NCBI GenBank assembly: GCA_964409765.1
Contig: CAYPEM010000019.1
Location: 1,429-65,428, forward strand
From: an uncultured Chitinophagaceae bacterium
GTDB lineage: Bacteria; Bacteroidota; Ignavibacteria; UBA10030; UBA8401
Length of the DNA stretch: 64,000 nt
Direction of reading: 5' to 3'
Shown here: piece after piece, positions 25,252-58,375 of the stretch
How the letters are laid out: every line of letters begins with the position of its first letter
How positions within the stretch are numbered: position 1 is the first letter of the stretch
Notes under the pieces: model-generated
Databases searched by the model: none
The model's input: the letters and a program-made list of their open reading frames with translations, nothing else
What the model was told of the DNA's origin: nothing
Translations under genes and position numbers: made by a program

Positions 25252-25328
25252 TCTTCCTTAGCTCAGCTGGTTAGAGCATCTGACTGTTAATCAGAGGGTC
25301 CCTGGTTCGAGCCCAGGAGGGAGAGCCA
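25252..25328 (+). tRNA. tRNA-Asn (anticodon GTT)
   Basis: Manually folded cloverleaf. Acceptor tcttcct/agggaga (one G-U pair). D-arm gctc...gagc. Anticodon stem tctga/tcaga with loop ctGTTaa. T-arm cctgg-ttcgagc-ccagg. Discriminator G plus encoded CCA. Confidence 0.85.
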
Positions 25329-30005: not shown

Positions 30006-31928
30006 TTAACCCGTCTTTTTCACTGTATCAAATTGAAATTGCCATTTGTCCGTGGAAGACTCACAGATAGATTGATTTCTGAATTCCTCTGAATGGAAAT
30101 CAATCATCTGTGAGCTTTCATTTTTATCCTGGCAGGTAGCACCATTATTCCTTCCGTTAGCTACCATAATTGTAAAGTTGTCCTTTTGAATACTCTCCTT
30201 TATTTGTCGTCTAACCTCAGCTAAATGCTTTTTAGCTGTATCAATATAAATCGAGAGGTTTTCAGCAATTAACCTTGCTGTCGGCTTTCTTTTTTGACTA
30301 ACAAGTCTATAATATTCATCCTTTACTTTATCAAAATAAGATAGAGGGGTAACCTGGGTAAACTCTCCAATAATAGAATAAGAGGATTCAATATTATCTT
30401 GTTCCTTTACCTGACCACCCCCCAATCCCATATGCTTTTTTCTACTGAGGTGATATTTAACCGTTTCGAAATTTATGTCAGCCAAATCGGAAACCAGCCG
30501 ACAGAAATGATTTTGACTTTTAATCTCTATTTTCCGTGATTGAATAAATAAGAGTGCTCTTTTCTTAATCTCTGTCCACCGATACAAAGCAGATGCATTT
30601 TTCAGTTCATTTAATAATCGCTTATATACAATGAGTGGAGCCTCATTTTCATTTATTCTTTCATCGATAAAATGCTTATTGCAGATGGATGACCTGGTTG
30701 AGAATTTTGGAGATAAAGTATTATTGGTGTAATGTTGATAAGCAAAGGAAGTAATGGATTTAAGTTCACTTTCGATTACGGGAAACTTGTTACCATGTTC
30801 ATCGAGACATTGTTCGTTTAAACAAAATGCAAGGCTATACAGTTTAGATTTTGAAACCGGTTTCTCATATACTTTCTGAATAAATAGGTATCCGCAAAGG
30901 ATTGCTATAAGCATATCAAATCGCTTACCTGAATAAATCATCAAATCTTTCTTAAATAAAATCTTGTATGCAATGGCCGGTTCCTGTAATAGAGCAATTG
31001 TATTTGATTTGTTATGCCATTCCTGATTGGAGATAAGTGTTTTCGGAAAGTATTTTGCCAGTGTATGTTTATTGTAATCAAATGTGAAATCTGATGTGCT
31101 TAGTTCCGGCAATCCGGAATGCTTGTCGATTACAACATGGTTTACACTATAGCCCTTTTCAATTTGTTTTGTAAAGTACAGGTAATGGCTCCGGTCCAGA
31201 TATATTTCAGGGTCAGCTAAAATTTTCTTTAGCTTACCTGATGACAGACCTTTTCCCGACCTTCCATTGTTCTTAGATTCCTTTTTTAAATGCTCCTGGT
31301 AGTAATCCTCAGATGATTTATCAAATACATATTTAAAGGTAGTTGCATGCTCATTAAACATGATTGCCGGGTCATAGGGCAAATAGGTACGTTGAGTGGT
31401 ATTACATGCACCATCACAAAGTTTGTAACCCAGTTGATTATAAATACGAGTTGACAATTGGTGATACATGTATTCATAATCTTCAAACGATTGGATTCCA
31501 TCTACTCTAATGATAGCATGTACACCGAAGGTTGTGGACCTATACACCATTATCACAAAAGGCAAAGCGGCAATTTCATTTTTTACGTCTTCGATTTCCT
31601 TTTCTTCGATATCATCGATATCAAGCAGGGCAAATCCTGTGAATGATTGCAAATTCTCTGCATCAATACAAGGATAGAATTTCGCATGCCATGTTACATT
31701 TGGATAATGCGTTTTGCGTAGCCTTATTTCCTTTTCAGAAAGTGCTCCAGAGCGTAATATCTCCTGGTCATCGTACCGCCAATCCTTTGTCCGGATTGTT
31801 TCAATAATTTGTAATGGGGATTTTACCTGACCGGCACTTGTAGTATATACATCCGGGAAATACTGAATTTCATCATTAGAAAAGTGTGAGTTTGTTTCAG
31901 TGTGTAAATAATTTGTCTCTTCATGCAT
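30006..31928 (-). CDS. Hypothetical 640-aa protein, possibly a primase/replication-related protein of Bacteroidetes mobile elements (VirE/BT4734-like N-terminal region)
   Basis: Size, position next to the recombinases and N-terminal segment resemblance. Low-confidence recognition without a search. Confidence 0.3.
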   Translation of the reverse strand: MHEETNYLHTETNSHFSNDEIQYFPDVYTTSAGQVKSPLQIIETIRTKDWRYDDQEILRSGALSEKEIRLRKTHYPNVTWHAKFYPCIDAENLQSFTGFALLDIDDIEEKEIEDVKNEIAALPFVIMVYRSTTFGVHAIIRVDGIQSFEDYEYMYHQLSTRIYNQLGYKLCDGACNTTQRTYLPYDPAIMFNEHATTFKYVFDKSSEDYYQEHLKKESKNNGRSGKGLSSGKLKKILADPEIYLDRSHYLYFTKQIEKGYSVNHVVIDKHSGLPELSTSDFTFDYNKHTLAKYFPKTLISNQEWHNKSNTIALLQEPAIAYKILFKKDLMIYSGKRFDMLIAILCGYLFIQKVYEKPVSKSKLYSLAFCLNEQCLDEHGNKFPVIESELKSITSFAYQHYTNNTLSPKFSTRSSICNKHFIDERINENEAPLIVYKRLLNELKNASALYRWTEIKKRALLFIQSRKIEIKSQNHFCRLVSDLADINFETVKYHLSRKKHMGLGGGQVKEQDNIESSYSIIGEFTQVTPLSYFDKVKDEYYRLVSQKRKPTARLIAENLSIYIDTAKKHLAEVRRQIKESIQKDNFTIMVANGRNNGATCQDKNESSQMIDFHSEEFRNQSICESSTDKWQFQFDTVKKTG

Positions 31929-38379: not shown

Positions 38380-38420
38380 CTTTTTTGATTTTAGGGAGTT
38401 AATTATTTTTGATTTTAATA

Positions 38421-39743: not shown

Positions 39744-39751
39744 TTTTTTGT

Positions 39752-44125: not shown

Positions 44126-44228
44126 TTTGGATATAAATAATTGAAGTTTGATGCCGGAAATACCGGCATAAATAAATTCAGCAGTTATATAAAATTTAAC
44201 TGCAACTAAAGAAAATCAGGAAAAGCTG

Positions 44229-44540
44229 TTAAGAAATTCGTGGCGGCTGCCAGAAATCATACGGACCGGAATTCGGAACGTGTGGTTGATAAAAAGTAAA
44301 ACTAACACCAGCGTAAAATTGAGGACATGAATAAGATGTTGTTCCAATGATAACAACAAATCCCTGGCAACATGAACAGATACAAAATGGTGTACAGCAA
44401 TCAGACAATGGTTCGGCATCATCACTACAAGCAGATGAAATGCTTGTCGATGACACAACTGCTTCTGCATGAGCATCATTACAAGGCATGACGCTTATGA
44501 GGCATACATAAAAAGCTAATATAAAGGTGAAAAATCGCAT
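44229..44540 (-). CDS. Small secreted Cys-rich protein at the head of the czc operon (possible periplasmic metal-binding protein)
   Basis: Signal peptide MRFFTFILAFYVCLISVMPCNDAHA. Cys cluster CSDDAEPLSDCCTPFCICSCCQG. Confidence 0.4.
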   Translation of the reverse strand: MRFFTFILAFYVCLISVMPCNDAHAEAVVSSTSISSACSDDAEPLSDCCTPFCICSCCQGFVVIIGTTSYSCPQFYAGVSFTFYQPHVPNSGPYDFWQPPRIS

Positions 44541-45099
44541 TTACCGGACAAATATAGTGATTACTGTCAAAAACACAAACCTGCCTCTTCCTCCTCAAGA
44601 GCTATACAACAATGTTGAATGAAATTGGAACAATTCATTAAAAATTTGAAAATAAATTTTTGAGCGAAAATTTGGAAGAAAAAATTTTGGAGAAAAAAAA
44701 TTTCAGAATTACGTTGGTTGAAAAAAGTTTACAAAAACTCATTTCGGCCTACTTTATCTGTCTATTTGATAACCTCATCTTAAATTGAGTGCCAAATAAG
44801 GATAAATACGAGCCTAAAATAGACATCTAATATAAGGGCTTTAAATAAGATTTTATTTTCCGATTACTATAAGATTTTCTCATGCTGTTCCGTATATAAG
44901 TATATGATATATCTGCCGGTGAATTCTAAACTTATTAAAAAATATTTTCAAATAAGTATAAGATTACGGAGGCAAATTTTGTATTATAGAGTATAGGCAA
45001 TAACATTCCGAAAAATAAATCCGTACATAGGATATGTAAGCTCCGCCATCAACAAGCTTCAATTTTCACTCTCACATTTACTAACTAAAACCAAAACAC

Positions 45100-45897
45100 A
45101 TGGGTCAAAGAAGCCAGGTATTCATCTATTGTATCAATCCAGTTAACGGATTAAAAGAGCAATTCAAATCATTAAAGAAGTACGGTAAAGATAAAAATGA
45201 GCTGGAGCTTCTAAAATCCAAGATTGAGAAATATGAACAGGCTTTTGGAACTAAACAGCACACGGTGATAAGCTATCATCACCAGTGGCTATATGGAAGA
45301 GCATCACTCTTGGCCAGTGCGCATATAATTGAATTTAATAAATTTTGTGAGAAAGAATCGAATCCGTTGAAAACACAAACTAATATTTCAGGGGATGAAT
45401 ATCTGAGCTTCCTTACTAATCTTCTTGGAATATTCAATAGTAAACTCGCTAAAACTATTGGGAGATTTGGTATTGAACACTTCCGGTTACTGAACTTCAT
45501 TGACCCTGATATGCGAACGGATTGCACTCGTGGTGACAACAATGATGGGATATTCGTTATCGATTGCGTGAATGACTCATACTGCTTCACGTCTGTAGGG
45601 AATGGAGATGCCACTATTTCACAACTTTCCCCTATGGTTCCTGTGACTGCCGGTCAATATGTTCGGCTTTACTATCCTGAACAACAAAGTGACAGTAACA
45701 CTGCAAATGTTCCGGATGCTATTGAAGAACAGGAAGCAAACTTCACAAATAATCGCAGAATGAACAAACTGTTCATAAAACCTTTCAACGATTATAGATT
45801 AATGACTAACTCTGAATTGAAAAAACTTTTTCCTGCATCGTTTCAAACTCAAACACCGGAATCTAATCCGGTCCAGTCAAATAATAACCAAATGTGA
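45100..45897 (+). CDS. Hypothetical protein (defense/mobile islet)
   Basis: ORF track; no recognisable motif. AT-rich gene downstream of an A-tract-rich spacer. Confidence 0.4.
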   Translation: MGQRSQVFIYCINPVNGLKEQFKSLKKYGKDKNELELLKSKIEKYEQAFGTKQHTVISYHHQWLYGRASLLASAHIIEFNKFCEKESNPLKTQTNISGDEYLSFLTNLLGIFNSKLAKTIGRFGIEHFRLLNFIDPDMRTDCTRGDNNDGIFVIDCVNDSYCFTSVGNGDATISQLSPMVPVTAGQYVRLYYPEQQSDSNTANVPDAIEEQEANFTNNRRMNKLFIKPFNDYRLMTNSELKKLFPASFQTQTPESNPVQSNNNQM

Positions 45898-46179
45898 TTG
45901 CCAACATCAACTAATCAATCGACAATGGAAAAGAAAAAAACAAAAGCAGATATCGTTTACAGCTTATGCGAAGCAGTTGCAGACATCGCTTACATAGCTG
46001 GCTACAAACATCACTATTCAGGAGACTCACGGGGAGACATGGCCAGTTACATATCATGGGCTCAGGAGTTCGAGAAGAAATGGAAAGGCAAGGAATGGGG
46101 TGCCGATGACACGGCTGATGATTACATGGATGAGATAACAAAATTTGCAGAATCAAAAATCCAATTGAGAAATGGATAA
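45898..46179 (+). CDS. Hypothetical small protein
   Basis: ORF track. The start abuts the stop of the upstream gene. Confidence 0.35.
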   Translation: MPTSTNQSTMEKKKTKADIVYSLCEAVADIAYIAGYKHHYSGDSRGDMASYISWAQEFEKKWKGKEWGADDTADDYMDEITKFAESKIQLRNG

Positions 46180-46540
46180 ACACGTAAAGGAGTCCTCTCT
46201 CTTGCGGAAATCGCTGTTGGGAATACGAGTAACGCCATTTACAACTCCACCACTATTTCAAATTCTGGATTGGAATGTTTTCGATGCAGGAGTTGTCCAG
46301 CTTCTTCCACCGGACGACCGGATGAGAAACAAGAATTTCCAGATTGAAAGAGGCGAGAATGAAAAAATCCTTGTCAGAATGTTTTTGTCGAGTGATAAAT
46401 CAACTATTGAACGGACTAAGTATTTCTATCTTTTGAAAAATAGCGATGAAGAATGCACGTTATATATCGTCCTCGCACTTTTGGCAAGAGTGCAGTACAA
46501 AATAAGTTCGGACCATGAGCTTCTCCCCTTTGGCTTCTGA
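46172..46540 (+). CDS. Hypothetical small protein
   Basis: ORF track. 8-bp overlap with the upstream gene. Followed by the hairpin gtttcacttccctggaagtgaaac. Confidence 0.35.
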   Translation: MDKHVKESSLLRKSLLGIRVTPFTTPPLFQILDWNVFDAGVVQLLPPDDRMRNKNFQIERGENEKILVRMFLSSDKSTIERTKYFYLLKNSDEECTLYIVLALLARVQYKISSDHELLPFGF

Positions 46541-46666
46541 CAAGTTTCACTTCCCTGGAAGTGAAACAACATAGTTAATAACACTGAAATACAGTGAGTA
46601 ATGAAGATTTATAATTTCATAGGTTCAGAAATAGTGGTATTAAATCGAAAATGAAACTTAAATATC

Positions 46667-47242
46667 ATGGCAAAAAAAAATCAACGCACCGTATGTACAG
46701 GCATGGAATGGTCGGACTTTTTATTTGTGGTCGAGACATTAAAAAGAAAGCAGGAGTATAAGTTTATGCTCCTTATTGCAGCCGGAGTTTTTCTTGGGCT
46801 TCGTGCAAGTGATATCCTTCAACTGCAATGGGATTCCCTTCTTAATGAGGAAACATTCTCATTGAAGGAAAAGAAAACTGGTAAGAGCCGTTTGGTTACT
46901 GTAAATCCGGCACTGAAAGAGGTGGCACAAATTGCTGCAGAGAATATACGTCTGCCGGGTATACCATTTATTGCCACCAACAGAAAAGGCAAACCTATCT
47001 CTATACAATACTTCAATCGAAAACTTCATTTCATTTTCAGTGAATGTAATGTTGCGGCAGGTAACGGCAGCACCCATACACTTCGCAAAACTTTCGGTAA
47101 GCGCATATTTTTATTAAATAACAAGTCTGAGAATAGCTTGATACTATTGAGCAAGGTCTTTAATCATAGCAGTACTGCTATGACACGTGAGTACCTCGGA
47201 TATACTCAATCGGACATTAATCAAATTTTCTTAAGTCTTTGA
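46667..47242 (+). CDS. Tyrosine recombinase/integrase, catalytic domain only (191 aa; no N-terminal core-binding domain)
   Basis: Catalytic residues in order: GLRASD (R), KTGK (K), HTLRKTF (HxxR), NHSS (H), REYLGYT (Y). Confidence 0.65.
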   Translation: MAKKNQRTVCTGMEWSDFLFVVETLKRKQEYKFMLLIAAGVFLGLRASDILQLQWDSLLNEETFSLKEKKTGKSRLVTVNPALKEVAQIAAENIRLPGIPFIATNRKGKPISIQYFNRKLHFIFSECNVAAGNGSTHTLRKTFGKRIFLLNNKSENSLILLSKVFNHSSTAMTREYLGYTQSDINQIFLSL

Positions 47243-47243
47243 G

Positions 47244-47690
47244 ATGAAAACAAAATTCAGTCTGATTTTAGTATTTACATCATTTTATTTTGCTCATGGA
47301 CAAAATGAAAAAGTCGATTTCTCTAATCCTGCGTTAATAAATGGAAGCTCGTGGGGAGCAGTCTTTCAACGATTCTATAAGAATGGAGACTTCGACTCGA
47401 TGATGAAATTAACGTCTGATGAGTCGCTCCGGAAATTCGGCAGAGATACTATTCGCAATTATTATGAGCGAATGGATTTTGGATACAAACTCAAATTGAA
47501 ATCCTGGACAAGAACTAAAAATCACTTCTCCCTCAATTACGAAGCAGATATACTTGCGACCAGAGTTATAATTAGAATGGAGCTTGAGTCTGTCAGCGGA
47601 AGTGCAAAAAGCGACAGTGCAAAAAGTGACAGTGTTAAAATTATTTTACCAGATAATTTCAAAACTAAAAAGTACTTTCTCTACCAATGA
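47244..47690 (+). CDS. Hypothetical secreted protein
   Basis: Signal peptide MKTKFSLILVFTSFYFAHGQ. Internal SAKSDSAKSDS repeat. Confidence 0.4.
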   Translation: MKTKFSLILVFTSFYFAHGQNEKVDFSNPALINGSSWGAVFQRFYKNGDFDSMMKLTSDESLRKFGRDTIRNYYERMDFGYKLKLKSWTRTKNHFSLNYEADILATRVIIRMELESVSGSAKSDSAKSDSVKIILPDNFKTKKYFLYQ

Positions 47691-48073
47691 AGATTTTAAG
47701 CCTGGCAAGTAAAAAGTTGAACTTGATGTTTGGTTCGGAGCATGAATGCCGGGAACAAATATTCAAGGAATATTACTTGCTGCACTGGTATAAAGTAATA
47801 CGAAATTCACCCGGACTTACATTAAAGCAGACAGAGGAGTTTTGTCGTGATTGTAATAAGTTTGACATACAGGTATTAGGTTTCGAAACCTCCTATGAAA
47901 GTCGTCATGGATTAAACACATACTGCTTTGAGGAATACGATGATGTTTACCAAGATGAATGGTGGTATGCTGCCTTTCATGACCTGCATTTAAACGGCAT
48001 CACTGATTCAATCATTCCCTACATCCACATTCCTCAGGAAACGCTTGATAACTATCTCCCTGATGCTAAGTGA
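47687..48073 (+). CDS. Hypothetical protein
   Basis: ORF track. 4-bp overlap with the upstream gene. Confidence 0.35.
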   Translation: MKILSLASKKLNLMFGSEHECREQIFKEYYLLHWYKVIRNSPGLTLKQTEEFCRDCNKFDIQVLGFETSYESRHGLNTYCFEEYDDVYQDEWWYAAFHDLHLNGITDSIIPYIHIPQETLDNYLPDAK

Positions 48074-48707
48074 GAGCAGGACCGAACGCTATTATTGTAA
48101 GGATGAAATTGGCAAGGACTTATTCTATATCGAGTTAGTATTTGATGATGAGATGCAATGGGCGTACATGAATTCATCCCTCGATTATGATTTTAAGGAG
48201 AATAAACTCATCGAGGAATTACACCGTAGAATTACCGATTACAATCTGAACCCATCATTCAGAGAAAAGTGGATTGAAGAATTGTTTTCTGTTATCCGGT
48301 CTCTCCCCGGCATCGAGAAATATTATTTCCCTCCGGAATTCCTGGACAAAACCGGCAGGCATGTTCCGGAGTACTCTGCGGTTTTGAAAAACCTTATCCA
48401 GCATAAAGACTTTCCGGATTACACAGTTTTCTCCCCAAACGAAAACGCATATTATTTTGAGTATTCTCTTTCATTTTTGGTCACCAAACTTGCTGAAGAT
48501 GGAGGTAAAGAAATAGATAAAATACTCTTCGAAAAACTGATTAAAAATGACATCACTTTGACTACTGAATATGTTGAATGGATGTCGGATAATTCGGAGT
48601 TTTTTCATGTATTTTTAGGGGATGAAAAAACTCAGTACGACTGCTTCGTTATGATGCAGGAGAATGAGATAAAATTATTTTTTGTGCGAGAGATAGTTTC
48701 AACCTGA
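48045..48707 (+). CDS. Hypothetical protein
   Basis: ORF track. Overlaps the upstream gene, so translational coupling is plausible. Confidence 0.35.
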   Translation: MITISLMLSESRTERYYCKDEIGKDLFYIELVFDDEMQWAYMNSSLDYDFKENKLIEELHRRITDYNLNPSFREKWIEELFSVIRSLPGIEKYYFPPEFLDKTGRHVPEYSAVLKNLIQHKDFPDYTVFSPNENAYYFEYSLSFLVTKLAEDGGKEIDKILFEKLIKNDITLTTEYVEWMSDNSEFFHVFLGDEKTQYDCFVMMQENEIKLFFVREIVST

Positions 48708-48746
48708 TTTTGTTTCCTTTCGACTATTTATAGTTGGAATCGTTGG

Positions 48747-49202
48747 TTGACTTTTTGGATGGTCCATAAAGTAGAAAATACGGTCCACATAAGAAGTATG
48801 TCATACGCATGCACACAAGCGAAGTGCAACAATTTTGGCCATCTCCCACCTCGTGAAGCGCTCATTTCTCTCTATAATTGCTACAAGTATTCTCTTGTTG
48901 AAAATGCTGAGTGGCGAGAAATACCTGGATTTCCTGGCTATGAAATTAGCTCCGCTGGGCAGGTTCGAAATCTTAAAAGTTACGGAGGTAAGCCACGAGT
49001 TTTAATTCCAACCTTAAGGTTTAATAAATACTTCTACGTAACACTTACTTCAAATGAAAAAAAACGAATCGGAATAGCGATTGACCGCTTGATGGGAATT
49101 GCTTTTAAAGATATGCAGTTTAAGGAACTAAGAAAAGTGATTCATATCGATGATTATCGATACAATAACCAAATTGTTAATCTAAGATTTATTACCTGGT
49201 AA
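48747..49202 (+). CDS. NUMOD4-motif protein with a degenerate HNH-like segment (homing-endonuclease-related)
   Basis: ENAEWREIPGFPGYEISSAGQVRNLKSYGG matches the NUMOD4 consensus. This is followed by YFYVTLTSNEKKRIGIAIDRLMGIAF, which resembles an HNH_3 core but has Asp where the catalytic His is expected. Confidence 0.5.
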   Translation: MTFWMVHKVENTVHIRSMSYACTQAKCNNFGHLPPREALISLYNCYKYSLVENAEWREIPGFPGYEISSAGQVRNLKSYGGKPRVLIPTLRFNKYFYVTLTSNEKKRIGIAIDRLMGIAFKDMQFKELRKVIHIDDYRYNNQIVNLRFITW

Positions 49203-49365
49203 TTCAAATACGACTTAAGATTACATAACAGTCATTTCCGAAGTTTCAAAATACATAATAGTTTGATATTATCTTGAATTTTTTTCGTCCTGTTTTAACC
49301 TAAACTGGTTGAAAAGTAGTTGTTTCTATGAGGCATTACCGGGTTATATTTGAGACCCCAAATAA

Positions 49366-50886
49366 ATGGCCATGAACAAAGAAGCAATCGCATCTCTAAA
49401 TAAAGAAGAAACGGCACCTAATCAAATAATGCCAATTAGGGACACGATATTTATTGGACACGCTAACCCGGAAGACAATGAATTTACTCTTTGGCTTCGG
49501 TCGAAATTAATTAACGAAGGTTATAAGGTTGAATGCGATTTGACATTTCTCCTTGGAGGAGAGAATGATTACTGGAAATCTCTTCAAGAATTATTAGAGA
49601 GCGGAACAATCAAATATTTACTTGTTTACAGTAAAAACACTTTTCTAAAACAAGGAGTTATTGATGAATGGGAGCAAGCAAAAGCAGTTGGCTCAGACAC
49701 CGGAATTCAAGACTTCAGAATAGTGTGCAAAATTGATGATGTTAGTTTTTCATCACGCATTGGACTTAACGTGATGAACCAAATAAGGTTTGACCGTTCC
49801 TGGAGCATAGGCTTAAAGCAAGTTCTAAGGAAGCTACGAAGAGACCAGGTGCCACGAGGCGCTAAGAATAATTATTCCGTTGATGATTGGTTCAAAAATC
49901 GATATACAACTGAGTATAATTTGAAAAAAAAGAACGAATCATATTATTCCAACTGGTTTGAGTTACCAGAGTTGCCAGAGACATTATTTATTCATGAGTA
50001 CGATACGCCCGCCCAAGCAAAATTAATAGCTAATGAGATATCGAGTTATCCTGCATTTGCACATGATAAATACTTAGTCACTTTTTTAGAAAATGTCCCT
50101 ACTTCCGGCAAAGAAAAAATCGATGAGCTAAATGGAGCTACAAAATTAATTGATATCGACATTGTGGCAAGAAACAAGCAATGTATACCTACACGATTAT
50201 ATAAAGATAATCATGATAGCTATCCATTCCCAGGAAATGTTGATTTAAAAAAGTTCATGGTTCGACTTTTAAGGGACGCATTCTTTAAATTTCTTAATTT
50301 GAAAAATGTTCCATTTCATGAGATGTCCAACAAGCTTCGCTGCTTTTACTATAGAGAAGGACAAATTGAAAATAATAAAGTTTCATACCTCTATCGAGGA
50401 AATTGGAGTAGACCAAAACAAATTTTGGGAGATTACTTTGAGCATACATGGCATTATGGTATAAGTGTTAAACCCATATTGCGTCCGGTGTTACGTTTTG
50501 CAATTAAGGGTCACCTATTATTTTCAGATGATGGAGAGAATATTTGGGAAAAGAAAAATGAACTTGCTTCCGCCAGGCGTAGCAAAGGCAAAGGATTTTA
50601 TAATGCAGATTGGAGAAACCTAATGTTAGCGTTCATGCATAGTATTGCTGATGATGAAGGCAACATATCAATGGCCCTCTCCGATATTTTTACCGTTACA
50701 ATAAGTGCAAGCCCTATAATTTTTCATTCAACATATGGATATGTTGAACCAACTTCAAATGCACGACTGGTTCCAGTGGATTCAGAGTTTGAGTCATTTA
50801 TGGAAGAGGAAGAAATGTATGATGCAGAAGAAATAGAAGATGCAGAAGAAAATAATGAAACTAACGAAAATGATATTGAATTATGA
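49366..50886 (+). CDS. TIR-APAZ protein (SPARTA-type partner of a short pAgo). It has an N-terminal TIR domain, an APAZ region and an unusually long acidic C-terminal tail.
   Basis: N-terminal IFIGHANPEDNEFTLWLRSKL...KYLLVYSKNTFLKQGVIDEWEQA is TIR-like, with a candidate catalytic Glu in DEWE. 506 aa. Ends with EEEEMYDAEEIEDAEENNETNENDIEL. The stop overlaps the start of the downstream pAgo gene by 4 bp. Confidence 0.7.
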   Translation: MAMNKEAIASLNKEETAPNQIMPIRDTIFIGHANPEDNEFTLWLRSKLINEGYKVECDLTFLLGGENDYWKSLQELLESGTIKYLLVYSKNTFLKQGVIDEWEQAKAVGSDTGIQDFRIVCKIDDVSFSSRIGLNVMNQIRFDRSWSIGLKQVLRKLRRDQVPRGAKNNYSVDDWFKNRYTTEYNLKKKNESYYSNWFELPELPETLFIHEYDTPAQAKLIANEISSYPAFAHDKYLVTFLENVPTSGKEKIDELNGATKLIDIDIVARNKQCIPTRLYKDNHDSYPFPGNVDLKKFMVRLLRDAFFKFLNLKNVPFHEMSNKLRCFYYREGQIENNKVSYLYRGNWSRPKQILGDYFEHTWHYGISVKPILRPVLRFAIKGHLLFSDDGENIWEKKNELASARRSKGKGFYNADWRNLMLAFMHSIADDEGNISMALSDIFTVTISASPIIFHSTYGYVEPTSNARLVPVDSEFESFMEEEEMYDAEEIEDAEENNETNENDIEL

Positions 50887-52397
50887 AAATGCAACATAAA
50901 ATATACTATTTAAAGGAGCCAGAATTAAAATTTGCATATAATCAAAGCGTAGTTGACCCAAGGGATGGCTTAACGCTTTTTGGTCCTTATGATAAAGGGA
51001 AAGTATCCGACCTATCGGTAGGAATCATTGGCACCGCAGATGGAATTGTTAAGTGTAAAAATTGGTTAACTAAAATTCAAAGACCTGTTTTTCATCCCAC
51101 TCATGATATTGCCAAGCCTTTCTTTCCTGGATTTGATTCTGCATTTTTCGTTTCGATGAACATGGAATCAATACCAACTTTGCAAATTGATGACTCGACA
51201 CTGGATAGTCTATATAAGTATTCAGATAGTCATATACGAGTGGCCGAAATTGTTGATTTGTATATTAACAAACTACATGAGTACCTAAAGGAAAACGAAA
51301 AACAACCTCGATTATGGTTCGTAATAATTCCGAATAAGGTTTATACATTATGCCGTCCCAAAAGTATCGTTCCCAAAAAAGGTTCTATTAAAGTTGGCTT
51401 CTCTGATGACTACTCTCGTAAAGTAGTAAGCATGTTTGAAAATGAAGAAGCTGGTAGATGGAGGAAAGCATACGACTATGAAAATCATTTTCATAATCAG
51501 CTTAAAATTAAATTACTAAATCAACGCATTCTAACGCAAATCATCAGAGAGGACACAATAGCCTTTGAGGATAAACCCAACGTTACTCCGAAAAAATTAA
51601 AAACCTATCAAAATCAAGTCACGGCAATAACCTGGAATCTTGCAAATTCAATTTATTATAAAGCGGGCGGCATACCGTGGAAGTTGGCCAATGTTCGTAA
51701 AAACGTTTGCTATATTGGTCTTACTTTCAAACGAGACGAAACGCATCATGATACGAGAATTGCATGTTGCGCTGCACAAATGTTTCTTGATACCGGTGAT
51801 GGGGTTGTCTTTCGAGGTCGAGTTGGACCTTATTATAATCCAACAACAAAAGAATATCATCTGACAGAAGAAAAAGCATATGAGCTATTATCAAAAGTGC
51901 TAACATCATTTAAAAAAGACAATGAATCTGAAATTCCAGAGAAAATTTTCATCCACGGAAAAACTTTTTTTAATGATGAAGAGTGGGCTGGCTTTGAAAG
52001 AGCTGCCAATGGTAAATGCCATGTTTATGGGGTTCGCATAACACATGAGAAAGATTTTAAATTATTCCGGGAAGGAGAGTATCCAATATATAGAGGAGCT
52101 TTTTATAAAAGACATAATAAGGCAGCATTTCTATGGACGAAAGGCTTTATGCCAAGGATTCAATCTGTACTTGGCCTTGAAACCCCGAATCCTTTACATG
52201 TTGAAATAATTCGAGGAGATGAAGACATTCAGACTGTTTGCAAGGATATAATGATGCTGACAAAGCTTAATTATAATGCATGCATTTATTGTGATGGAAC
52301 TCCCGTAACACTAAAATTTGCGGACTTAATTGGAGAGATTCTCACTGCAGGTCCGAATGAAGATTTAGAAATTCTTCCGTTCATGTATTACATCTAA
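50883..52397 (+). CDS. Short prokaryotic Argonaute (MID-PIWI only), predicted catalytically inactive
   Basis: 504 aa. Translationally coupled to the TIR-APAZ gene. PIWI-like region ..ITWNLANSIYYKAGGIPWKL..VCYIGLTFKRDETHHD.. lacks the GxDV(S/T)H and RDG catalytic aspartates. This call is from the architecture and was not verified by a search. Confidence 0.65.
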   Translation: MKMQHKIYYLKEPELKFAYNQSVVDPRDGLTLFGPYDKGKVSDLSVGIIGTADGIVKCKNWLTKIQRPVFHPTHDIAKPFFPGFDSAFFVSMNMESIPTLQIDDSTLDSLYKYSDSHIRVAEIVDLYINKLHEYLKENEKQPRLWFVIIPNKVYTLCRPKSIVPKKGSIKVGFSDDYSRKVVSMFENEEAGRWRKAYDYENHFHNQLKIKLLNQRILTQIIREDTIAFEDKPNVTPKKLKTYQNQVTAITWNLANSIYYKAGGIPWKLANVRKNVCYIGLTFKRDETHHDTRIACCAAQMFLDTGDGVVFRGRVGPYYNPTTKEYHLTEEKAYELLSKVLTSFKKDNESEIPEKIFIHGKTFFNDEEWAGFERAANGKCHVYGVRITHEKDFKLFREGEYPIYRGAFYKRHNKAAFLWTKGFMPRIQSVLGLETPNPLHVEIIRGDEDIQTVCKDIMMLTKLNYNACIYCDGTPVTLKFADLIGEILTAGPNEDLEILPFMYYI

Positions 52398-55339
52398 TTT
52401 ACCTGATTAGTGCCTTGGACTATTTTAATTTCTTCCGGAGTTAATTCATAAAGTTGATATACAATCTGATTTATTTTCTCCTCACAAAAATCAATCTTAC
52501 TTTGAATTTGAATTAATTTGTTTTCGAGTTTTAATTCTTCCTTCTCTTTATTCAATTCCTGCAATTGTTTAACAAGATTCGCAAGTCCAGATTCTTGCTT
52601 TCCGTTTATTGGAAATGGCAATTCATTCAAGTATACTGCTTTTACTTGTGGTATCACTCTTTGGCCACCTTGAATTAAAGTATCATATAGAAATTGAAAT
52701 AGTTTTGAATGGAAAATCGCTAAAACTACATTTACATTAATTCCTGATTTGGTCTTAAAGAGATACAGTGAATCTGTAGCATAAAATCCAAATTCATCAT
52801 ATGCAACCGTAAGTTTTTTTGTAGTTGTAAGTCCAATGAATTTATTTGAAGAAAATATTTCAGGATTTCTTGGTCTATGTAATGCAAACCATGGGTGTTT
52901 GCCCTCGGCAACTTCACGACATGTAATAAATTTTTTAAATTCAGATAAATGTTTTTTAGCATTTGGGTAATCGTTGATATTATCTTTGGATGTGAGATAA
53001 AGGATTACATCATTGGTATGTATTGTGTTGAATCTTTGTATATGCTTGCCTAATACAAGTGGCCGTAATATTTTCTTCTCTATTTTTTTCTCTGCAGCTT
53101 CATTTGCATTCAACACAAACGCCTTTGAATAGTCAGGGCTAATTCCTCTTTGTATTTCACCGTCTATTATATCTCTGAATGTTGCAAACCTCCCTTGCAA
53201 CTTCTTCAACAAAGAAACATTCGAAGTACTGAAAGTAAAGTAAGTGAATAATCCATCCTTTTTTACTAATTCAGTCCACTGAGATTTATCTGTTGATTGA
53301 ATACTATTTAGATTTCTTTCCTTTTCTTCCGGACTTACATCTCTTAGGTCCGCTATATACAAAGGTGAACTCTCTGAAGGAGATTTTGTAAATACAAGAA
53401 TTGTAGAAGTGTTTAAAACTTTAGGCCCAAAAACCTTTTCGCCAAGATTTATTACAATTTCAAGATTAAATTTTTCAGCTATCAATTTACGTAAAAGTTG
53501 CACATCGCTTTGGTTCAAGAATGTACTTGGTATTATCATTCCAAAGGAGCCATCTTTTTTCAGAAGTTCAAGAGAATGATTAATAAAGTACATGTAAGAA
53601 TCAATCATCCGAACAATGATAGCATTATGTCTGCTCCTTAAATAATCAAGAGACTCATCCGATAAATCAGCACCCCACGGTGGATTTCCAACTACAATAT
53701 CAAAACCACCTTGTGAAAAAATATTTGGAAAACCAGTTTTCCAATTAAATGGTTTTATTTTTTTATCCTCGCCAAAATCAAATTTCCCCTCATAGAAATC
53801 CACATCAATCAAACTATTCCCACTCTTAATATTATTTTCTAACGATGGCAAAACTCGTTCATTCCACAAACTCATCTGCGAAGCAATACTTGCTTCAGTT
53901 TCGCCTTCCATGCATTTCAGAAGTAAACTGAGCTTCGTTACTTCCACAGCATTTACATCGATGTCTACTCCGTAGATGTTATTCTGGAGAATACGTTTTT
54001 TCTCAGCCGTAGTAAGGTGACCCTCCGGGGTTAATGGATTATCTTTCTTTCCTTTCGATGCCGGACCATTCCTGGTGTAATAGTCTTTATGGTAATCGAG
54101 CAGATATTGATATGCACCCAGGAGAAAACTCCCAGAGCCGCATGCGATATCGGCAATTGTTATTTCGGAAATTTCTTTCGGAGTTTTACCTTCGATGAGT
54201 TTGCCGACTGTGTTTTTTACAATATAATCTACTATGTACTGTGGAGTGTAGTATACTCCGCCTGCTTTACGAACTTCCGGCTTCTCTTCAATCTTCGCCC
54301 TATGAGCGCTATCGATGCGAATTTGTTTCCCAAGGAACTGTTCATAAGCATTGCCCAGGATTTCGACAGACAGGACCGAAAACTCGTAAGGTGATTCCGG
54401 ATAATAAAGTTCATTGATAATAGTCTTGATAACCTTGTTATCGACTTTGATATTTTCCGAAATCTTATCCTTCTTGAAATCAAAAATACCGGAGTTGTAT
54501 TTCTCATCAGCCTTATGAAAAATATCGAAGAGATTTTTATAATAATCCCCCGAACTAATCGAATGTTTGAGATTGCCATATGGTTCAACACTTCTGTCCT
54601 CAGCAATTCGCAGAAAGATTAGCCGGTCGATAGTTTGTTGGACCACAAAATTGATTTCATCCTCATCCAGGTTTTTGTTATTCCAGCTAATGCTTGTGGC
54701 CAAATAGGTCCGCCATTCATCGAGCGACTGCAGGAATTCTTTATCGACTGTTGTTGTTCCTTTTTTATTTGCTGTTGATGCAACAAACTTGTCGAAACTG
54801 CCTTTCAGTACTTTCTCTTTGCTGAATGTGTCGTATATGAATTCAAACTCTTTAAGGTAATCACGGAAGGTGATGTATCGTATCCTGGCCACAGACGCTT
54901 TATCTGCCGGCAAAGGTTTCTTTGTACAATCATATACTGCAAACTCTTCAAAGTCTGTTATAATGGAAATGGGGAGCTTCGCAGACCATCCGTAACGTCT
55001 TATTTGATATGCCGGAATGATTTCATCCTTTACTACAATATGTGGCTTCTTTGCTTCCACAAAAAATAGGCGCTTGCCTCCCGATAACCGGAACGAATAA
55101 TCCGGAGCCTTGATTGCACCACTAATCCTTATTTTGTCTTCATGGATAACTTCTCGATAAGCTTCTGCGAACCCCTGAGCGTTGTTCATATCCCAGCCCA
55201 ATGCCGAGAAAAACGGGTCGATGAAATCCTTCCGTGTTAAAGTCTCATTATACCCGGACCGTTTGTAAGACTCGTATTGTTCTTCAAATCTGTCAATCAG
55301 GTCACTAATTATTTCTCTTGCTGAATCCTTAGTTGTCAT
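52394..55339 (-). CDS. Type IIG (MmeI/Eco57I-like) restriction-modification enzyme: N-terminal PD-(D/E)xK nuclease, gamma-class N6-adenine methyltransferase, C-terminal target-recognition domain
   Basis: Nuclease motif ..APDYSF...LFFVEAKKP. MTase motif I DIACGSGSFLLGAY and motif IV VVGNPPWG. 981 aa. Its 3' end overlaps the pAgo 3' end by 4 bp, tail-to-tail. Confidence 0.75.
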   Translation of the reverse strand: MTTKDSAREIISDLIDRFEEQYESYKRSGYNETLTRKDFIDPFFSALGWDMNNAQGFAEAYREVIHEDKIRISGAIKAPDYSFRLSGGKRLFFVEAKKPHIVVKDEIIPAYQIRRYGWSAKLPISIITDFEEFAVYDCTKKPLPADKASVARIRYITFRDYLKEFEFIYDTFSKEKVLKGSFDKFVASTANKKGTTTVDKEFLQSLDEWRTYLATSISWNNKNLDEDEINFVVQQTIDRLIFLRIAEDRSVEPYGNLKHSISSGDYYKNLFDIFHKADEKYNSGIFDFKKDKISENIKVDNKVIKTIINELYYPESPYEFSVLSVEILGNAYEQFLGKQIRIDSAHRAKIEEKPEVRKAGGVYYTPQYIVDYIVKNTVGKLIEGKTPKEISEITIADIACGSGSFLLGAYQYLLDYHKDYYTRNGPASKGKKDNPLTPEGHLTTAEKKRILQNNIYGVDIDVNAVEVTKLSLLLKCMEGETEASIASQMSLWNERVLPSLENNIKSGNSLIDVDFYEGKFDFGEDKKIKPFNWKTGFPNIFSQGGFDIVVGNPPWGADLSDESLDYLRSRHNAIIVRMIDSYMYFINHSLELLKKDGSFGMIIPSTFLNQSDVQLLRKLIAEKFNLEIVINLGEKVFGPKVLNTSTILVFTKSPSESSPLYIADLRDVSPEEKERNLNSIQSTDKSQWTELVKKDGLFTYFTFSTSNVSLLKKLQGRFATFRDIIDGEIQRGISPDYSKAFVLNANEAAEKKIEKKILRPLVLGKHIQRFNTIHTNDVILYLTSKDNINDYPNAKKHLSEFKKFITCREVAEGKHPWFALHRPRNPEIFSSNKFIGLTTTKKLTVAYDEFGFYATDSLYLFKTKSGINVNVVLAIFHSKLFQFLYDTLIQGGQRVIPQVKAVYLNELPFPINGKQESGLANLVKQLQELNKEKEELKLENKLIQIQSKIDFCEEKINQIVYQLYELTPEEIKIVQGTNQVN

Positions 55340-55478
55340 TCAAATGGGCGGAATTTTGACAAATATAAGGTATTAAGGGTACAGAAATCAGGGTGAATTT
55401 TGGGTAAGTATCTGCCTGCAGATTGCATTCAAACGAGCCGTAAACATGGTAACTTTACTCTCGTTAACCGGACCCATA

Positions 55479-57218: not shown

Positions 57219-57238
57219 AGTTATTAATGTAAACAAAC

Positions 57239-57739: not shown

Positions 57740-57786
57740 TTTAAAATTTTCTGTCTTCTGTTATTTAAAATTAAATAGAATTGTAT

Positions 57787-58200: not shown

Positions 58201-58375
58201 TGTTTCATACTTTCAGAACGATTCAAACTCATGTAAGCCAATTAATGGCGAAAACAATTGCTAAAGCTCCATAATAAATACTTGCAATGAAATGATATCT
58301 ATCATAGTTATAAGTACGAATTCATATCTAATAACAGAAAGATGAAAATTTATAGTTACTGAAAATCTCGTAGGT

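What the first reader, a model, noticed from the sequence alone, without database searches (positions are those of the whole stretch)
44541..55339. Defense islet: unknown genes, a recombinase-domain gene, a NUMOD4 protein, SPARTA and a Type IIG R-M enzyme, bounded on the left by an A-tract-rich spacer
About 10.8 kb between the czc operon and a GH30-like gene is AT-rich by eye and gene-dense. It holds seven hypothetical proteins (45100-46540 and 47244-48707), a catalytic-domain-only tyrosine recombinase, a NUMOD4/HNH-like gene, the SPARTA pair and an MmeI-like R-M enzyme. Defense systems cluster, so the uncharacterised overlapping gene sets are candidates for novel defense or anti-defense functions. 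The first set is three genes: 45100-45897, 45898-46179 and 46172-46540. The second is 47244-47690, 47687-48073 and 48045-48707. The SPARTA operon and the R-M gene are convergent and share 4 bp at their 3' ends (52394-52397). This arrangement favours antisense and terminator interplay.
Basis: partly seen in the sequence, partly recalled or inferred. Interest (0 to 1): 0.7.

Follow-up and report, generated by a model that had tools for sequence, protein, structure and literature searches.

The report
Mobile-element gene cassette beside swappable defence genes
The region holds two ordinary, already-known defence systems (SPARTA and a Type IIG restriction enzyme), but the "unknown genes" next to them are one conserved eight-gene, phage-related cassette that recurs in other uncultured Bacteroidota, each time followed by a different set of defence genes.

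Summary
All ORF coordinates, SPARTA (49366-52397), the Type IIG enzyme (52394-55339, minus strand), the 191-aa catalytic-domain-only tyrosine recombinase and the NUMOD4 gene are confirmed. The framing is not. The islet (GC 0.364) matches its flanks (0.374 and 0.381). The real compositional break is at 25.3 kb, where tRNA-Asn is followed by two large serine recombinases and a BT4734-like primase. The islet therefore lies inside an integrated island of at least 39 kb that also carries heavy-metal genes. The "two triplets", the recombinase and the NUMOD4 gene form one collinear eight-gene cassette (44585-49202). It has a conserved ~520-bp leader and an invariant 10-mer, CGTTGGTTGA, upstream of its first and last genes. 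The same cassette (41-74% aa identity) occurs in five other metagenomic loci. The four with sequence downstream each carry different defence cargo (Type I R-M; DUF2779/HsdR/AAA/GmrSD; Cas3-like helicase/BrxC-D-like/TerB; PLD/DUF4276-AAA/Type IIG-like); the fifth contig ends at the NUMOD4 gene. A rearranged four-gene core recurs beside a kinase/phosphatase/AbiEi cluster. ORF1 belongs to a 617-cluster family found in jumbo-phage contigs. ORF1 and ORF7 model confidently but match no solved structure. Best reading: a phage-derived backbone module of an integrative element, flanking a defence-cargo slot. Its biochemical function is unknown.

The parts
25252..25328 (+). tRNA-Asn (GTT). It marks the compositional break and the left edge of the larger island that contains the islet.
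   Evidence: ARAGORN and Rfam tRNA at 65 bits. GC is 0.436 before it and 0.374 after it.
25291..28330 (-). Two large serine recombinases (25291-26925 and 26792-28330). They are the candidate integrases of the island.
   Evidence: Pfam Resolvase + Recombinase + Zn_ribbon_recom in both proteins.
30006..31928 (-). BT4734-like (archaeo-eukaryotic-type) primase-like protein of 640 aa. It is the candidate replication gene of the island.
   Evidence: Pfam BT4734-like_N 2.9e-11; PADLOC PrimPol and VirE-PriCT2 models. A BT4734-like gene also lies beside the cassette in L023 and in the 28.5-kb JGI contig.
44585..45099 (+). Conserved non-coding leader of the cassette. It includes a degenerate AAATTTTGGAGAAA repeat array (44641-44708) and copy 1 of the invariant 10-mer CGTTGGTTGA (44712-44721).
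   Evidence: Aligned with L004, L022 and L023; blastn 65-74% identity; TRF; 10-mer positions. No Rfam hit. Folding is not better than shuffled sequence, z about -1.
45100..45897 (+). ORF1, 265 aa. It belongs to a family with invariant MGQRSQ at the N-terminus plus HHQWLYG and GDNNDG motifs. Distant homologues lie on jumbo-phage contigs.
45898..46179 (+). ORF2, 93 aa from TTG (84 aa from the ATG at 45925). Acidic and predicted helical. Conserved in the cassette.
   Evidence: tblastn 46-60% identity in L004, L022 and L023. The 84-aa form is in the public protein collection.
46172..46540 (+). ORF3, 122 aa, the best-conserved cassette protein. It overlaps ORF2 by 8 bp.
   Evidence: 60-74% identity in L004, L022 and L023; 47 invariant columns. 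No PDB profile hit.
46667..47242 (+). Short tyrosine recombinase, 191 aa, catalytic domain only. All catalytic residues are present (R46, K70/K73, H137, R140, H167, Y176).
   Evidence: Pfam. Family of 73 clusters, 170-210 aa. Invariant residues. The profile matches only the C-terminal domains of XerA, XerH and XerD. Homologues occur in Bacteroides phage BS-TP1 and Cellulophaga phage phi46:1.
47244..47690 (+). ORF5, 148 aa, with a conserved N-terminal signal-peptide-like segment (a predicted exported protein). It starts 2 bp after the recombinase stop codon.
   Evidence: Alignment of 7 sequences, all with M-K plus a hydrophobic stretch. tblastn 35-49% identity in L004, L022, L023 and L008.
47687..48073 (+). 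ORF6, 128 aa, acidic (pI 5.0). Variably present: found in L022, L008 and the 70-kb contig, and deleted in L004 and L023, where N-terminal vestiges remain (17 codons in L004).
48045..48707 (+). ORF7, 220 aa from TTG (more likely 214 aa from the ATG at 48063). Acidic (pI 4.6), with two alpha/beta domains.
48741..48750 (+). Copy 2 of the invariant 10-mer CGTTGGTTGA, immediately upstream of (or overlapping the annotated TTG start of) the NUMOD4 gene.
   Evidence: Only two exact copies occur in the 64-kb window. In L004, L022 and L023 there are also exactly two copies, at the two homologous positions.
48747..49202 (+). NUMOD4 / partial-HNH protein (the start may be 48759 or 48798). It is the last conserved cassette gene, and the variable cargo begins after it.
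   Evidence: Pfam NUMOD4 6.6e-11; HNH_3 matched only at profile positions 21-40 of 46. PADLOC HEase and PHROG HNH endonuclease hits. The short C-terminus is conserved in 4 loci.
49366..52397 (+). SPARTA operon: TIR-APAZ (49366-50886) and short pAgo (50883-52397), overlapping by 4 bp. A Bacteroidota-type -7 box, TATATTTG, lies at 49345.
52394..55339 (-). Single-chain Type IIG restriction-modification enzyme: HSDR_N-type nuclease, then Eco57I/N6_Mtase methylase, then a TaqI_C specificity domain.
   Evidence: The GNPPWG and PD...EAK motifs were read directly in the translation.

Best explanation
Window 44585-49202 is a conserved, phage-derived backbone module of an integrative genomic island of Bacteroidota. 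The DNA just downstream of its last gene is a cargo slot. In this genome the slot holds SPARTA and a Type IIG R-M enzyme.

Shown:
- The eight genes, their leader and two copies of one 10-mer are collinear and conserved in five other loci.
- The downstream genes differ in each of the four loci that extend past the NUMOD4 gene, and they are defence-type.
- The islet lies within a low-GC island that begins at tRNA-Asn with two serine recombinases and a primase-like gene.
- In relatives the cassette directly abuts homologues of the window's primase-proximal region.

Inferred mechanism:
- The island integrates and excises through the serine recombinases.
- It replicates as a circle using the BT4734-like primase. 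The AT-rich, repeat-bearing leader is a candidate origin or regulatory region.
- The short Xer-like recombinase, which has a complete active site but no core-binding domain and has homologues in lytic Bacteroidota phages, resolves multimers of the circular form rather than integrating it.
- The NUMOD4 protein, a DNA-binding module with a truncated HNH, binds the CGTTGGTTGA sites upstream of ORF1 and of its own gene and so controls the two transcription units.
- ORF1, ORF5, ORF6 and ORF7 form a functional unit that acts on or against phage. ORF5 acts outside the cytoplasm. The biochemistry is unknown.
- SPARTA (NAD+ depletion on guide-directed detection of invading DNA) and the Type IIG enzyme (cut-and-methylate) are independent cargo that protect the host and hence the element. 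A Bacteroidota-type -7 box lies upstream of SPARTA; no promoter was sought for the Type IIG gene.
For: Cassette synteny:
- L004 has 7 of 8 genes at 45-74% aa identity.
- L022, an uncultured Flavobacteriales MAG, has 8 of 8. L023 has 7 of 8.
- JGI contigs of 37, 70 and 28.5 kb show the same order of gene sizes and Pfam labels.

Variable defence-type genes after the NUMOD4 gene:
- Type I R-M.
- DUF2779, HsdR, AAA_15/21 and GmrSD_N.
- DEAD/Cas3-like_C, BrxC_BrxD, TerB_C and AAA_11/12.
- DprA-like, PLDc_2, DUF4276 with AAA_15, and a MmeI/Eco57I-type methylase.

Other evidence:
- A rearranged core, ORF7(-) ORF1(+) ORF5(+) ORF6(-), lies beside Metallophos, Pkinase-FHA and AbiEi_2 in L008.
- The leader and the 10-mer are conserved.
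- Island context: tRNA-Asn, serine recombinases, primase-like gene, and shifts in GC and GC3.
- Junctions: L022 6462-6704 is 83% identical in DNA to window 32194-32437 (a truncated lipoprotein gene). L023 2787-2961 is 81% identical to window 31907-32078. Each abuts the left end of the cassette.
- The 28.5-kb contig reads integrase, BT4734-like primase, cassette, defence cargo.
- Phage ancestry: ORF1 on jumbo-phage contigs, the recombinase in cultured phages, and NUMOD4/HNH PHROG hits.
- Recombinase active site and Xer affinity.
- A related short recombinase lies near a core gene (aspS), at the opposite side from a full-length integrase gene, in Fluviicola loci that lack the other cassette genes.
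Against: - No att repeats or right end of the island were found in the window, and no empty site in a relative could be retrieved.
- Excision, replication and mobility are therefore inferred.
- Several cassette loci show no integrase or primase within the ~10 kb available (L022; the 70-kb contig).
- The left junctions in L022 and L023 are ragged (about 44627 and about 44585). That fits deletion or rearrangement as well as it fits modular insertion.
- The roles proposed for the NUMOD4 protein, the 10-mer, the leader and the short recombinase have no direct test here.
- The leader has no significant single-strand fold and only a weak consensus RNA structure.
- Constant association with defence genes is equally what a defence or anti-defence system would show.
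Confidence: 0.55

Rival explanations
1. The conserved genes are themselves a new multi-gene anti-phage defence system, either the four-gene core ORF1-ORF5-ORF6-ORF7 or the whole cassette. On this reading it sits in defence islands like any other system, and the recombinase and NUMOD4 genes are accessory.
For: Every cassette-type locus with flanks is embedded in defence-type genes. The four-gene core keeps together even when its order and strands change and the recombinase is lost (L008). That is a classic sign of functional linkage. Defence genes with phage homologues are known. ORF1 has enzyme-like invariant polar motifs.
Against: There are no hits to 5027 PADLOC models. Most of the ORF1 family lies on large phage contigs, without ORF5, ORF6 or ORF7. 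The cassette is the constant element while the neighbouring defence systems vary. It has a fixed orientation and position relative to the cargo, and in three loci it is linked to a BT4734-like primase and/or an integrase. ORF6 is dispensable: it is deleted in L004 and L023.
Confidence: 0.2
2. The cassette is an anti-defence or establishment module of the mobile element, analogous to the leading-region anti-restriction genes of plasmids. Acidic ORF6 and ORF7 would act as inhibitors or DNA mimics, and ORF1 as a phage-type counter-defence enzyme.
For: ORF7 (pI 4.6) and ORF6 (pI 5.0) are acidic. ORF1 homologues lie among small unannotated same-strand genes of large phages, where counter-defence genes are common. 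All cassette genes are co-oriented behind a long conserved leader.
Against: The leader does not form the long single-strand hairpin expected of ssDNA promoters (z about -1). No relaxase, oriT or conjugation genes are seen. There is no similarity in sequence or fold to known anti-defence proteins. An exported protein (ORF5) does not fit this role easily.
Confidence: 0.12
3. The cassette is a decaying prophage fragment with no current function. Its nearness to defence genes only reflects shared residence in a recombination-prone island.
For: Three of the eight genes have phage relatives. The NUMOD4/HNH protein lacks the end of the HNH motif. ORF6 is lost in two loci.
Against: Eight intact ORFs are kept in the same order at 41-74% aa identity across loci whose DNA has diverged to about 65%. 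Conserved catalytic residues, overlapping start and stop codons, a conserved non-coding leader and the invariant 10-mer all indicate purifying selection.
Confidence: 0.05

Closest known systems
tRNA/tmRNA-integrated defence-carrying genomic islands without transfer genes ('phage defence elements'; I55-family islands transduced by a jumbo phage, Zhao et al. PNAS 2025, PMC12595487)
   Same: The island lies next to a tRNA gene, has recombinases at its edge, carries a small set of conserved backbone genes of unclear function plus replication-type genes, has variable defence cargo, and shows no conjugation genes in the part seen (paper read).
   Different: The phylum is different (Bacteroidota). 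The edge recombinases here are serine, not tyrosine. The backbone genes differ: no RadC, YqaJ or AlpA were found. The heavy-metal cargo is large. No att repeats were found. Mobility and helper phage are untested.
Phage satellites with defence hotspots (P4-like elements, PICIs)
   Same: Integrase plus primase plus a few small conserved genes, followed by a variable accessory region rich in defence systems. Some genes have phage ancestry.
   Different: No capsid-remodelling, packaging (terS) or helper-derepression genes are recognisable. The island is at least 39 kb, larger than typical satellites. The cassette genes have no homologues in known satellites, apart from distant short recombinases such as that of Streptococcus satellite Javan297.
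SPARTA (short pAgo / TIR-APAZ; Koopal et al. Cell 2022, PMC9097488)
   Same: The gene order, 4-bp gene overlap, protein sizes and full-length similarity match solved SPARTA complexes (pAgo 1e-134, TIR-APAZ 2e-52). A Glu (E101) aligns with the Glu of the GV(L/I)xE segment of a solved TIR-APAZ.
   Different: This is a new sequence variant only. TIR-APAZ has about 24 extra N-terminal residues and an acidic C-terminal tail. Activity is untested.
Type IIG single-chain R-M enzymes (Eco57I / MmeI class)
   Same: An N-terminal PD-(D/E)xK-type nuclease, a gamma-type N6-adenine methylase (NPPW) and a C-terminal TaqI_C-like specificity domain in one 981-aa protein. The PADLOC Type IIG model is matched end to end.
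   Different: It is closer to Eco57I-type than to MmeI-type methylase profiles. Recognition sequence and cleavage offset are unknown.
Xer-type tyrosine recombinases (XerA, XerH, XerD)
   Same: The catalytic domain is present with the complete R-K-H-R-H-Y set, and the best PDB profile matches are XerA and XerH.
   Different: The whole N-terminal core-binding domain is missing. This short form is a stable architecture (73 clusters of 170-210 aa) shared with lytic Bacteroidota phages. Its DNA site and partner are unknown.

Membership tests
SPARTA | Adjacent co-oriented TIR-APAZ and short pAgo genes | tested here: met
   49366-50886 and 50883-52397, + strand, 4-bp overlap.
SPARTA | TIR domain with the catalytic glutamate, fused to APAZ | tested here: met
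   Pfam TIR_2 at residues 28-124. PADLOC Aga_TIR-PNTD1-PNTD2 at 1e-111 over residues 25-486. E101 aligns with the Glu of solved chain 8qlo_A. The catalytic role of that Glu is taken from PMC9097488.
SPARTA | Short pAgo (MID + PIWI only) | tested here: met
   504 aa. Residues 6-504 align to residues 3-507 of solved SPARTA pAgo chains at E = 8e-134. Pfam Piwi at residues 206-467.
SPARTA | Catalytically inactive PIWI; guide- and target-dependent NADase activity | not tested
   The DEDX positions were not examined. The activity needs biochemistry.
Type IIG restriction-modification | Nuclease, N6A methylase and specificity domain in one polypeptide | tested here: met
   HSDR_N 64-141, Eco57I 453-637, N6_Mtase 326-694 and TaqI_C 813-908. 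PADLOC REase_MTase_IIG at 2.4e-191, covering positions 8-1004 of 1011.
MmeI family specifically | MmeI-type helicase-like, methylase, TRD and C-terminal domains | tested here: inconclusive
   Only MmeI_Mtase is hit (8.7e-10), and it overlaps a much stronger Eco57I hit. No MmeI_hel, MmeI_TRD or MmeI_C domain was reported at E<=0.01.
Tyrosine recombinase / phage integrase | Catalytic R-K-H-R-H-Y residues | tested here: met
   R46, K70/K73, H137, R140, H167 and Y176 are invariant in 12 family members.
Tyrosine recombinase / phage integrase | N-terminal core-binding (SAM-like) DNA-binding domain | tested here: not met
   The 191 aa align only to residues 141-311 of XerA, 183-351 of XerH and 136-288 of XerD. 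All 73 relatives are 170-210 aa.
HNH homing endonuclease (NUMOD4 + HNH_3) | NUMOD4 DNA-binding module | tested here: met
   Pfam NUMOD4 6.6e-11, above the cut-off.
HNH homing endonuclease (NUMOD4 + HNH_3) | Complete HNH (beta-beta-alpha-metal) nuclease motif | tested here: inconclusive
   HNH_3 scores below its cut-off and covers only profile positions 21-40 of 46. The protein ends there in all four loci. H133, D135, N140, N141 and N145 are invariant.
Integrated genomic island / integrative element | Next to a tRNA gene, with recombinase genes at the edge and a compositional shift | tested here: met
   tRNA-Asn at 25252-25328, two serine recombinases, GC 0.436 falling to 0.374 and GC3 about 0.5 falling to about 0.3.
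Integrated genomic island / integrative element | Defined ends (att repeats) and absence from close relatives | tested here: inconclusive
   No repeat of the tRNA region at or above 13 nt and no convincing flanking repeats were found. The right end may lie beyond the window. The empty-site look-ups returned nothing.
Phage satellite (PICI / P4-like) | Integrase plus primase/replicase | tested here: met
   Serine recombinases and a BT4734-like primase in the window. Tyrosine integrase plus BT4734-like primase in the 28.5-kb contig.
Phage satellite (PICI / P4-like) | Packaging or capsid-hijack genes; helper-phage-induced excision and transfer | not testable with these tools
   No such genes are recognisable. 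Induction needs experiments.
Known or candidate defence systems (PADLOC-DB v2) | Any of the six hypotheticals or the short recombinase matching a defence model | tested here: not met
   Zero hits at E<=0.1 for the ORFs 45100-48707, including the recombinase.

The most novel reading that the evidence does not exclude
The cassette is the core of a previously unrecognised family of Bacteroidota islands that parasitise large (jumbo) phages. ORF1, whose wider family lies on jumbo-phage contigs, would be a captured helper-phage gene used to sense or hijack the helper. The short recombinase and the leader would handle the circular replicating form. The slot after the NUMOD4 gene would be the element's exchangeable defence payload. 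A close alternative is that the ORF1-ORF5-ORF6-ORF7 core is itself a new phage-directed defence or exclusion system with an exported component.
Probability: 0.12. Interest if true: 0.8.

Novelty: new variant of a known kind. Interest (0 to 1): 0.5.

Why it matters
SPARTA and the Type IIG enzyme add nothing new by themselves.

The useful result is an anchor: a compact, recognisable eight-gene cassette with a conserved leader and a 10-mer signature. In uncultured Flavobacteriales-like bacteria it marks a place where defence systems are swapped in and out. Such anchors are how defence hotspots were exploited for system discovery in E. coli and Pseudomonas, and few are described for Bacteroidota.

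The cassette also provides two well-modelled proteins with no solved structural relative. One of them is shared with jumbo phages. It further provides a stable catalytic-domain-only class of tyrosine recombinase whose DNA-targeting mode is unknown.

If the cassette proves to be a satellite or hijack module, it would extend jumbo-phage-mediated island transfer (PMC12595487) to another phylum.

Tried and rejected
1. Family searches. Pfam, PADLOC, PHROGs and NCBIfam on all six hypotheticals gave nothing usable. Weak hits were judged uninformative: DUF2682 for 3 of 12 ORF7 relatives, Oxygenase-NA for 6 of 34 ORF1 relatives at E>=0.011, and a single TPR-like hairpin in ORF5.
3. Fusions in the ORF1 family. 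Eight longer proteins (307-981 aa) carried no Pfam domains.
4. Conserved neighbours of ORF1 in phage loci: none.
5. ORF1 and a central family member against GenBank phages, and ORF1 against PLSDB plasmids: no match.
6. ssDNA-promoter or structured-RNA reading of the leader. Folding was no better than shuffled sequence, the consensus structure was only -6.5 kcal/mol, and there was no Rfam hit. Rejected.
7. att or terminal repeats around the islet or island. Only short matches, judged likely chance.
8. Sigma-70 promoter and terminator scan. Fewer sites than in shuffled sequence. Uninformative for Bacteroidota.
9. Scans for the cassette with the ORF7 profile. Only 2 loci in the genome collection, 1 in the metagenome collection and none in IMG/VR. 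A single narrow peptide pattern was used for the genome and metagenome scans (two for IMG/VR), so this is a lower bound.
10. Empty-site search by exact look-up of the flanking PfkB and DUF6660 proteins: not on record.
11. A concatenated ORF1+ORF2+ORF3 query returned only ORF1 relatives, although ORF2 and ORF3 are in the collection. The word-index search therefore misses short proteins in concatenated queries. It also missed the 59-65%-identical ORF1 copies of L022 and L023.

Full report
OBSERVATION

The annotated genes check out as follows.
- 46667-47242 is a Phage_integrase catalytic domain (Pfam 5.7e-13).
- 48747-49202 carries NUMOD4 (6.6e-11) and a sub-threshold, C-terminally cut HNH_3 match.
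- 49366-50886 and 50883-52397 are TIR-APAZ and short pAgo (PADLOC 1e-111 and 5e-189). They resemble solved SPARTA complexes over their full length (pAgo 8e-134, TIR-APAZ 2e-52).
- 52394-55339 on the minus strand is a complete single-chain Type IIG enzyme (HSDR_N, Eco57I/N6_Mtase, TaqI_C; PADLOC REase_MTase_IIG 2.4e-191 end to end).
- The convergent genes overlap by four bases.
- The left neighbour is an RND-OEP fusion with a HlyD partner and DUF6660.

Three details needed correction. There are six hypotheticals, not seven. 'MmeI-like' is loose, because the Eco57I profile fits far better. The 'GH30-like' call rests on a domain exactly at its cut-off.

COMPOSITION AND THE LARGER CONTEXT

The islet is not a compositional island within its surroundings. 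Its GC is 0.364, against 0.374 for 25330-44540 and 0.381 for 55340-64000. Tetranucleotide correlations with those flanks are 0.93-0.96, against 0.86 with 1-25250.

The real break is at about 25.3 kb. GC falls from 0.436 to 0.374, and gene GC3 falls from about 0.5 to about 0.3. At that point lies tRNA-Asn. It is followed by two large serine recombinases and a BT4734-like, AEP-type primase-like gene (family described in PMC5862659). Two heavy-metal gene sets follow (P-type ATPases, CzcB/CzcA-C, HMBD, paralogous His/Cys lipoproteins).

The islet is therefore one segment of an integrated island of at least 39 kb. No right end, and no repeat of the tRNA region, is visible in the window.

THE UNKNOWN GENES ARE ONE CONSERVED CASSETTE

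ORF1 (45100-45897) has a 66%-identical homologue on JGI contigs. There the neighbouring genes have the same sizes and order: 264 aa, 122 aa, 190-aa Phage_integrase, 136 aa, 216 aa, 136-aa NUMOD4.

tblastn shows that ORF1, ORF2, ORF3, the recombinase, ORF5, ORF7 and the NUMOD4 protein are all conserved there (45-74% identity). Only ORF6 is missing, and it leaves a 17-codon vestige.

Further copies are as follows.
- L022, a 91-kb contig of an uncultured Flavobacteriales MAG, has all eight genes.
- L023 has seven of the eight.
- JGI contigs of 70 kb and 28.5 kb show the same series of gene sizes.
- A fragment with ORF6 and ORF7 comes from an Ignavibacteria MAG.

Within the window the genes are tightly packed. 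ORF2 and ORF3 overlap by 8 bp. ORF5 starts 2 bp after the recombinase stop. ORF5 and ORF6 overlap by 4 bp, and ORF6 and ORF7 also overlap. The recombinase therefore sits inside the 'second triplet' operon rather than beside it.

In L008-L010 only ORF7(-), ORF1(+), ORF5(+) and ORF6(-) occur together, in a different order and orientation and without the other four genes. That marks these four as a functionally linked core.

WHAT FOLLOWS THE CASSETTE VARIES AND IS DEFENCE-TYPE

- Window: SPARTA, then Type IIG.
- 37-kb contig (L004): Type I R-M, with HsdR, a 1103-aa protein and HsdS.
- L022: DUF2779, HsdR, a 283-aa protein, AAA_15/21 ATPase and GmrSD_N.
- 70-kb contig: DEAD/Cas3-like_C helicase, BrxC_BrxD, TerB_C and an AAA_11/12 helicase. 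A second TIR_2 (490 aa) plus 502-aa pair lies upstream of the cassette.
- 28.5-kb contig: DprA-like, PLDc_2, DUF4276 with AAA_15, and a 1186-aa MmeI/Eco57I-type methylase.
- L008: Metallophos, Pkinase-FHA and AbiEi_2.

NON-CODING FEATURES

The 'A-tract spacer' is conserved with the cassette. blastn gives 65-74% identity running from the leader into ORF1-ORF3, and the four-way alignment has long invariant runs. It contains a degenerate AAATTTTGGAGAAA repeat array.

An exact 10-mer, CGTTGGTTGA, occurs only twice in the 64-kb window (44712 and 48741). It occurs exactly twice in each of L004, L022 and L023, at the homologous places: about 380 bp (297-388 bp across the loci) upstream of ORF1, and immediately upstream of the NUMOD4 gene.

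The leader has no Rfam match. Its single-strand fold is no better than shuffled sequence (z about -1), and its consensus RNA structure is weak. I therefore read it as DNA-level signals: promoter or operator, possibly an origin.

A Bacteroidota-type -7 box (TATATTTG) lies 21 bp before the SPARTA start. This fits SPARTA being an autonomous cargo unit.

JUNCTIONS

In L022 the DNA abutting the left end of the cassette is 83% identical to window 32194-32437. That segment is the 3' part of the His/Cys lipoprotein gene, which is truncated in L022.

In L023 the abutting DNA is 81% identical to window 31907-32078. That segment is the non-coding stretch upstream of the primase-like gene. It lies next to a very divergent BT4734-like gene.

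Relative to these loci, the window has about 12 kb of heavy-metal genes between the primase region and the cassette. This ties the cassette to the island backbone. The junctions are ragged (about 44585 and about 44627), so they do not define a precise mobile unit.

THE PROTEINS

ORF1
- Its family has an invariant N-terminus (MGQRSQ) plus HHQWLYG and GDNNDG motifs.
- A profile search of 1.84 billion representatives finds 617 clusters. Nearly all of the 150 best hits listed are stand-alone proteins under 300 aa.
- Eleven IMG/VR loci carry it, several on contigs of 125-345 kb. There it has no ORF5, ORF6 or ORF7 partner and no conserved neighbour.

ORF7

ORF5, ORF6 and ORF7
- ORF5 has a conserved signal-peptide-like N-terminus in all homologues.
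- ORF6 and ORF7 are acidic.

The recombinase
- Its family has 73 clusters, 170-210 aa long.
- R, K, H-x-x-R, H and Y are invariant.
- It aligns only to the catalytic domains of XerA, XerH and XerD.
- Relatives occur in Bacteroides phage BS-TP1 (beside ligase, dUTPase and a NUMOD1 gene), in Cellulophaga phage phi46:1, and in Streptococcus phages and a satellite.
- A 47%-identical copy lies near aspS, at the opposite side from a full-length integrase gene, in Fluviicola loci that lack the other cassette genes.

The NUMOD4 protein
- It ends at the same point, within the HNH motif, in all four loci.

INTERPRETATION

Confidence is about 0.55 that the cassette is a phage-derived backbone module of an integrative island, and that the position after the NUMOD4 gene is a cargo slot for defence systems.

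The following steps are inferred, not shown.
- Integration by the serine recombinases.
- Circular replication by the primase-like protein, with the leader as a candidate origin or control region.
- Multimer resolution by the short Xer-like recombinase.
- Regulation through binding of the NUMOD4 protein to the 10-mer.
- A phage-directed role for ORF1, ORF5, ORF6 and ORF7.

The rivals are a new defence system (0.2), an anti-defence or establishment module (0.12) and an inert prophage remnant (0.05).

SPARTA is expected to work as described: guide-directed detection of invading DNA activates the TIR NADase (PMC9097488). The Type IIG enzyme is expected to act as a cut-and-methylate enzyme. Neither was tested functionally here.

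COMPARISON AND NOVELTY

The closest described class is the tRNA/tmRNA-linked defence-carrying island without transfer genes. That class includes the I55 family, which is moved by a jumbo phage (PMC12595487). P4-like and PICI satellites with defence hotspots are also close.

The present case shares the architecture but none of the backbone genes. It occurs in a different phylum, and its mobility is unproven. I rate it a new variant of a known kind, with moderate interest (0.5). The known defence systems are ordinary. The conserved cassette, its signature motif and its two fold-orphan proteins are the part worth following up.

Noticed in passing
window 31907-32078: A non-coding stretch upstream of the BT4734-like primase gene carries interleaved inverted repeats (CATTGCGATT...AATCGCAATG and AGTTGCCGG...CCGGCAACT). 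It is 81% identical to L023 2787-2961, although the adjacent primase-like proteins are barely alignable. It could be an origin, an oriT or a regulatory RNA. The RNA fold z-score is only -1.7, and there is no Rfam hit.
   Followed up: partly
window 32194-32616 and 57787-58200: These are two paralogous His/Cys-rich lipoproteins of 140 and 137 aa (70% DNA identity over 256 bp). One lies in each of the two heavy-metal gene sets that flank the islet, and neither has a Pfam family. A truncated 83%-identical copy abuts the cassette in L022.
   Followed up: partly
window 39752-44125 (-): A single 1457-aa ORF fuses an RND pump (ACR_tran, residues 5-1044) to an outer-membrane factor (OEP, residues 1287-1454). 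This is a CzcA-CzcC-type fusion.
   Followed up: partly
window 25291-25328: The ORF of the first serine recombinase (25291-26925, minus strand) overlaps the 3' end of tRNA-Asn (25252-25328, plus strand) by 38 nt. This may mark the integration junction.
   Followed up: no
window 46544-46567: A perfect 11-bp-stem hairpin (GTTTCACTTCC CT GGAAGTGAAAC) follows ORF3 directly. A shorter hairpin with different sequence (GTTCACT...AGTGAAC) sits at the same place in L022. A TTTCAC motif recurs about 75 bp downstream in all loci.
   Followed up: partly
JGI 70-kb contig (no DNA held), genes 2375-5352: A second TIR_2 (490 aa) plus 502-aa gene pair, probably another SPARTA, lies upstream of that cassette copy. 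An RmuC gene (527 aa, minus strand) directly precedes the cassette both there and in the 37-kb contig.
   Followed up: no
L006 8308-9132 and 10933-11769 (also L007): This phage-like contig carries two diverged paralogues of ORF1 about 1.8 kb apart.
   Followed up: no
window 49306-49315: TGGTTGAAAA, which is the last seven bases of the cassette 10-mer plus the AAA that follows it at copy 1 (44715-44724), recurs 39 bp upstream of the SPARTA -7 box. There are three exact copies in the window against 0.54 expected.
   Followed up: partly
window 55446-57218: The 'GH30-like' protein has a T9SS C-terminal sorting domain (1.4e-11). Its only glycoside-hydrolase evidence is the GH30 beta-sandwich domain at exactly the Pfam cut-off, so its enzymatic identity is unverified.
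   Followed up: no
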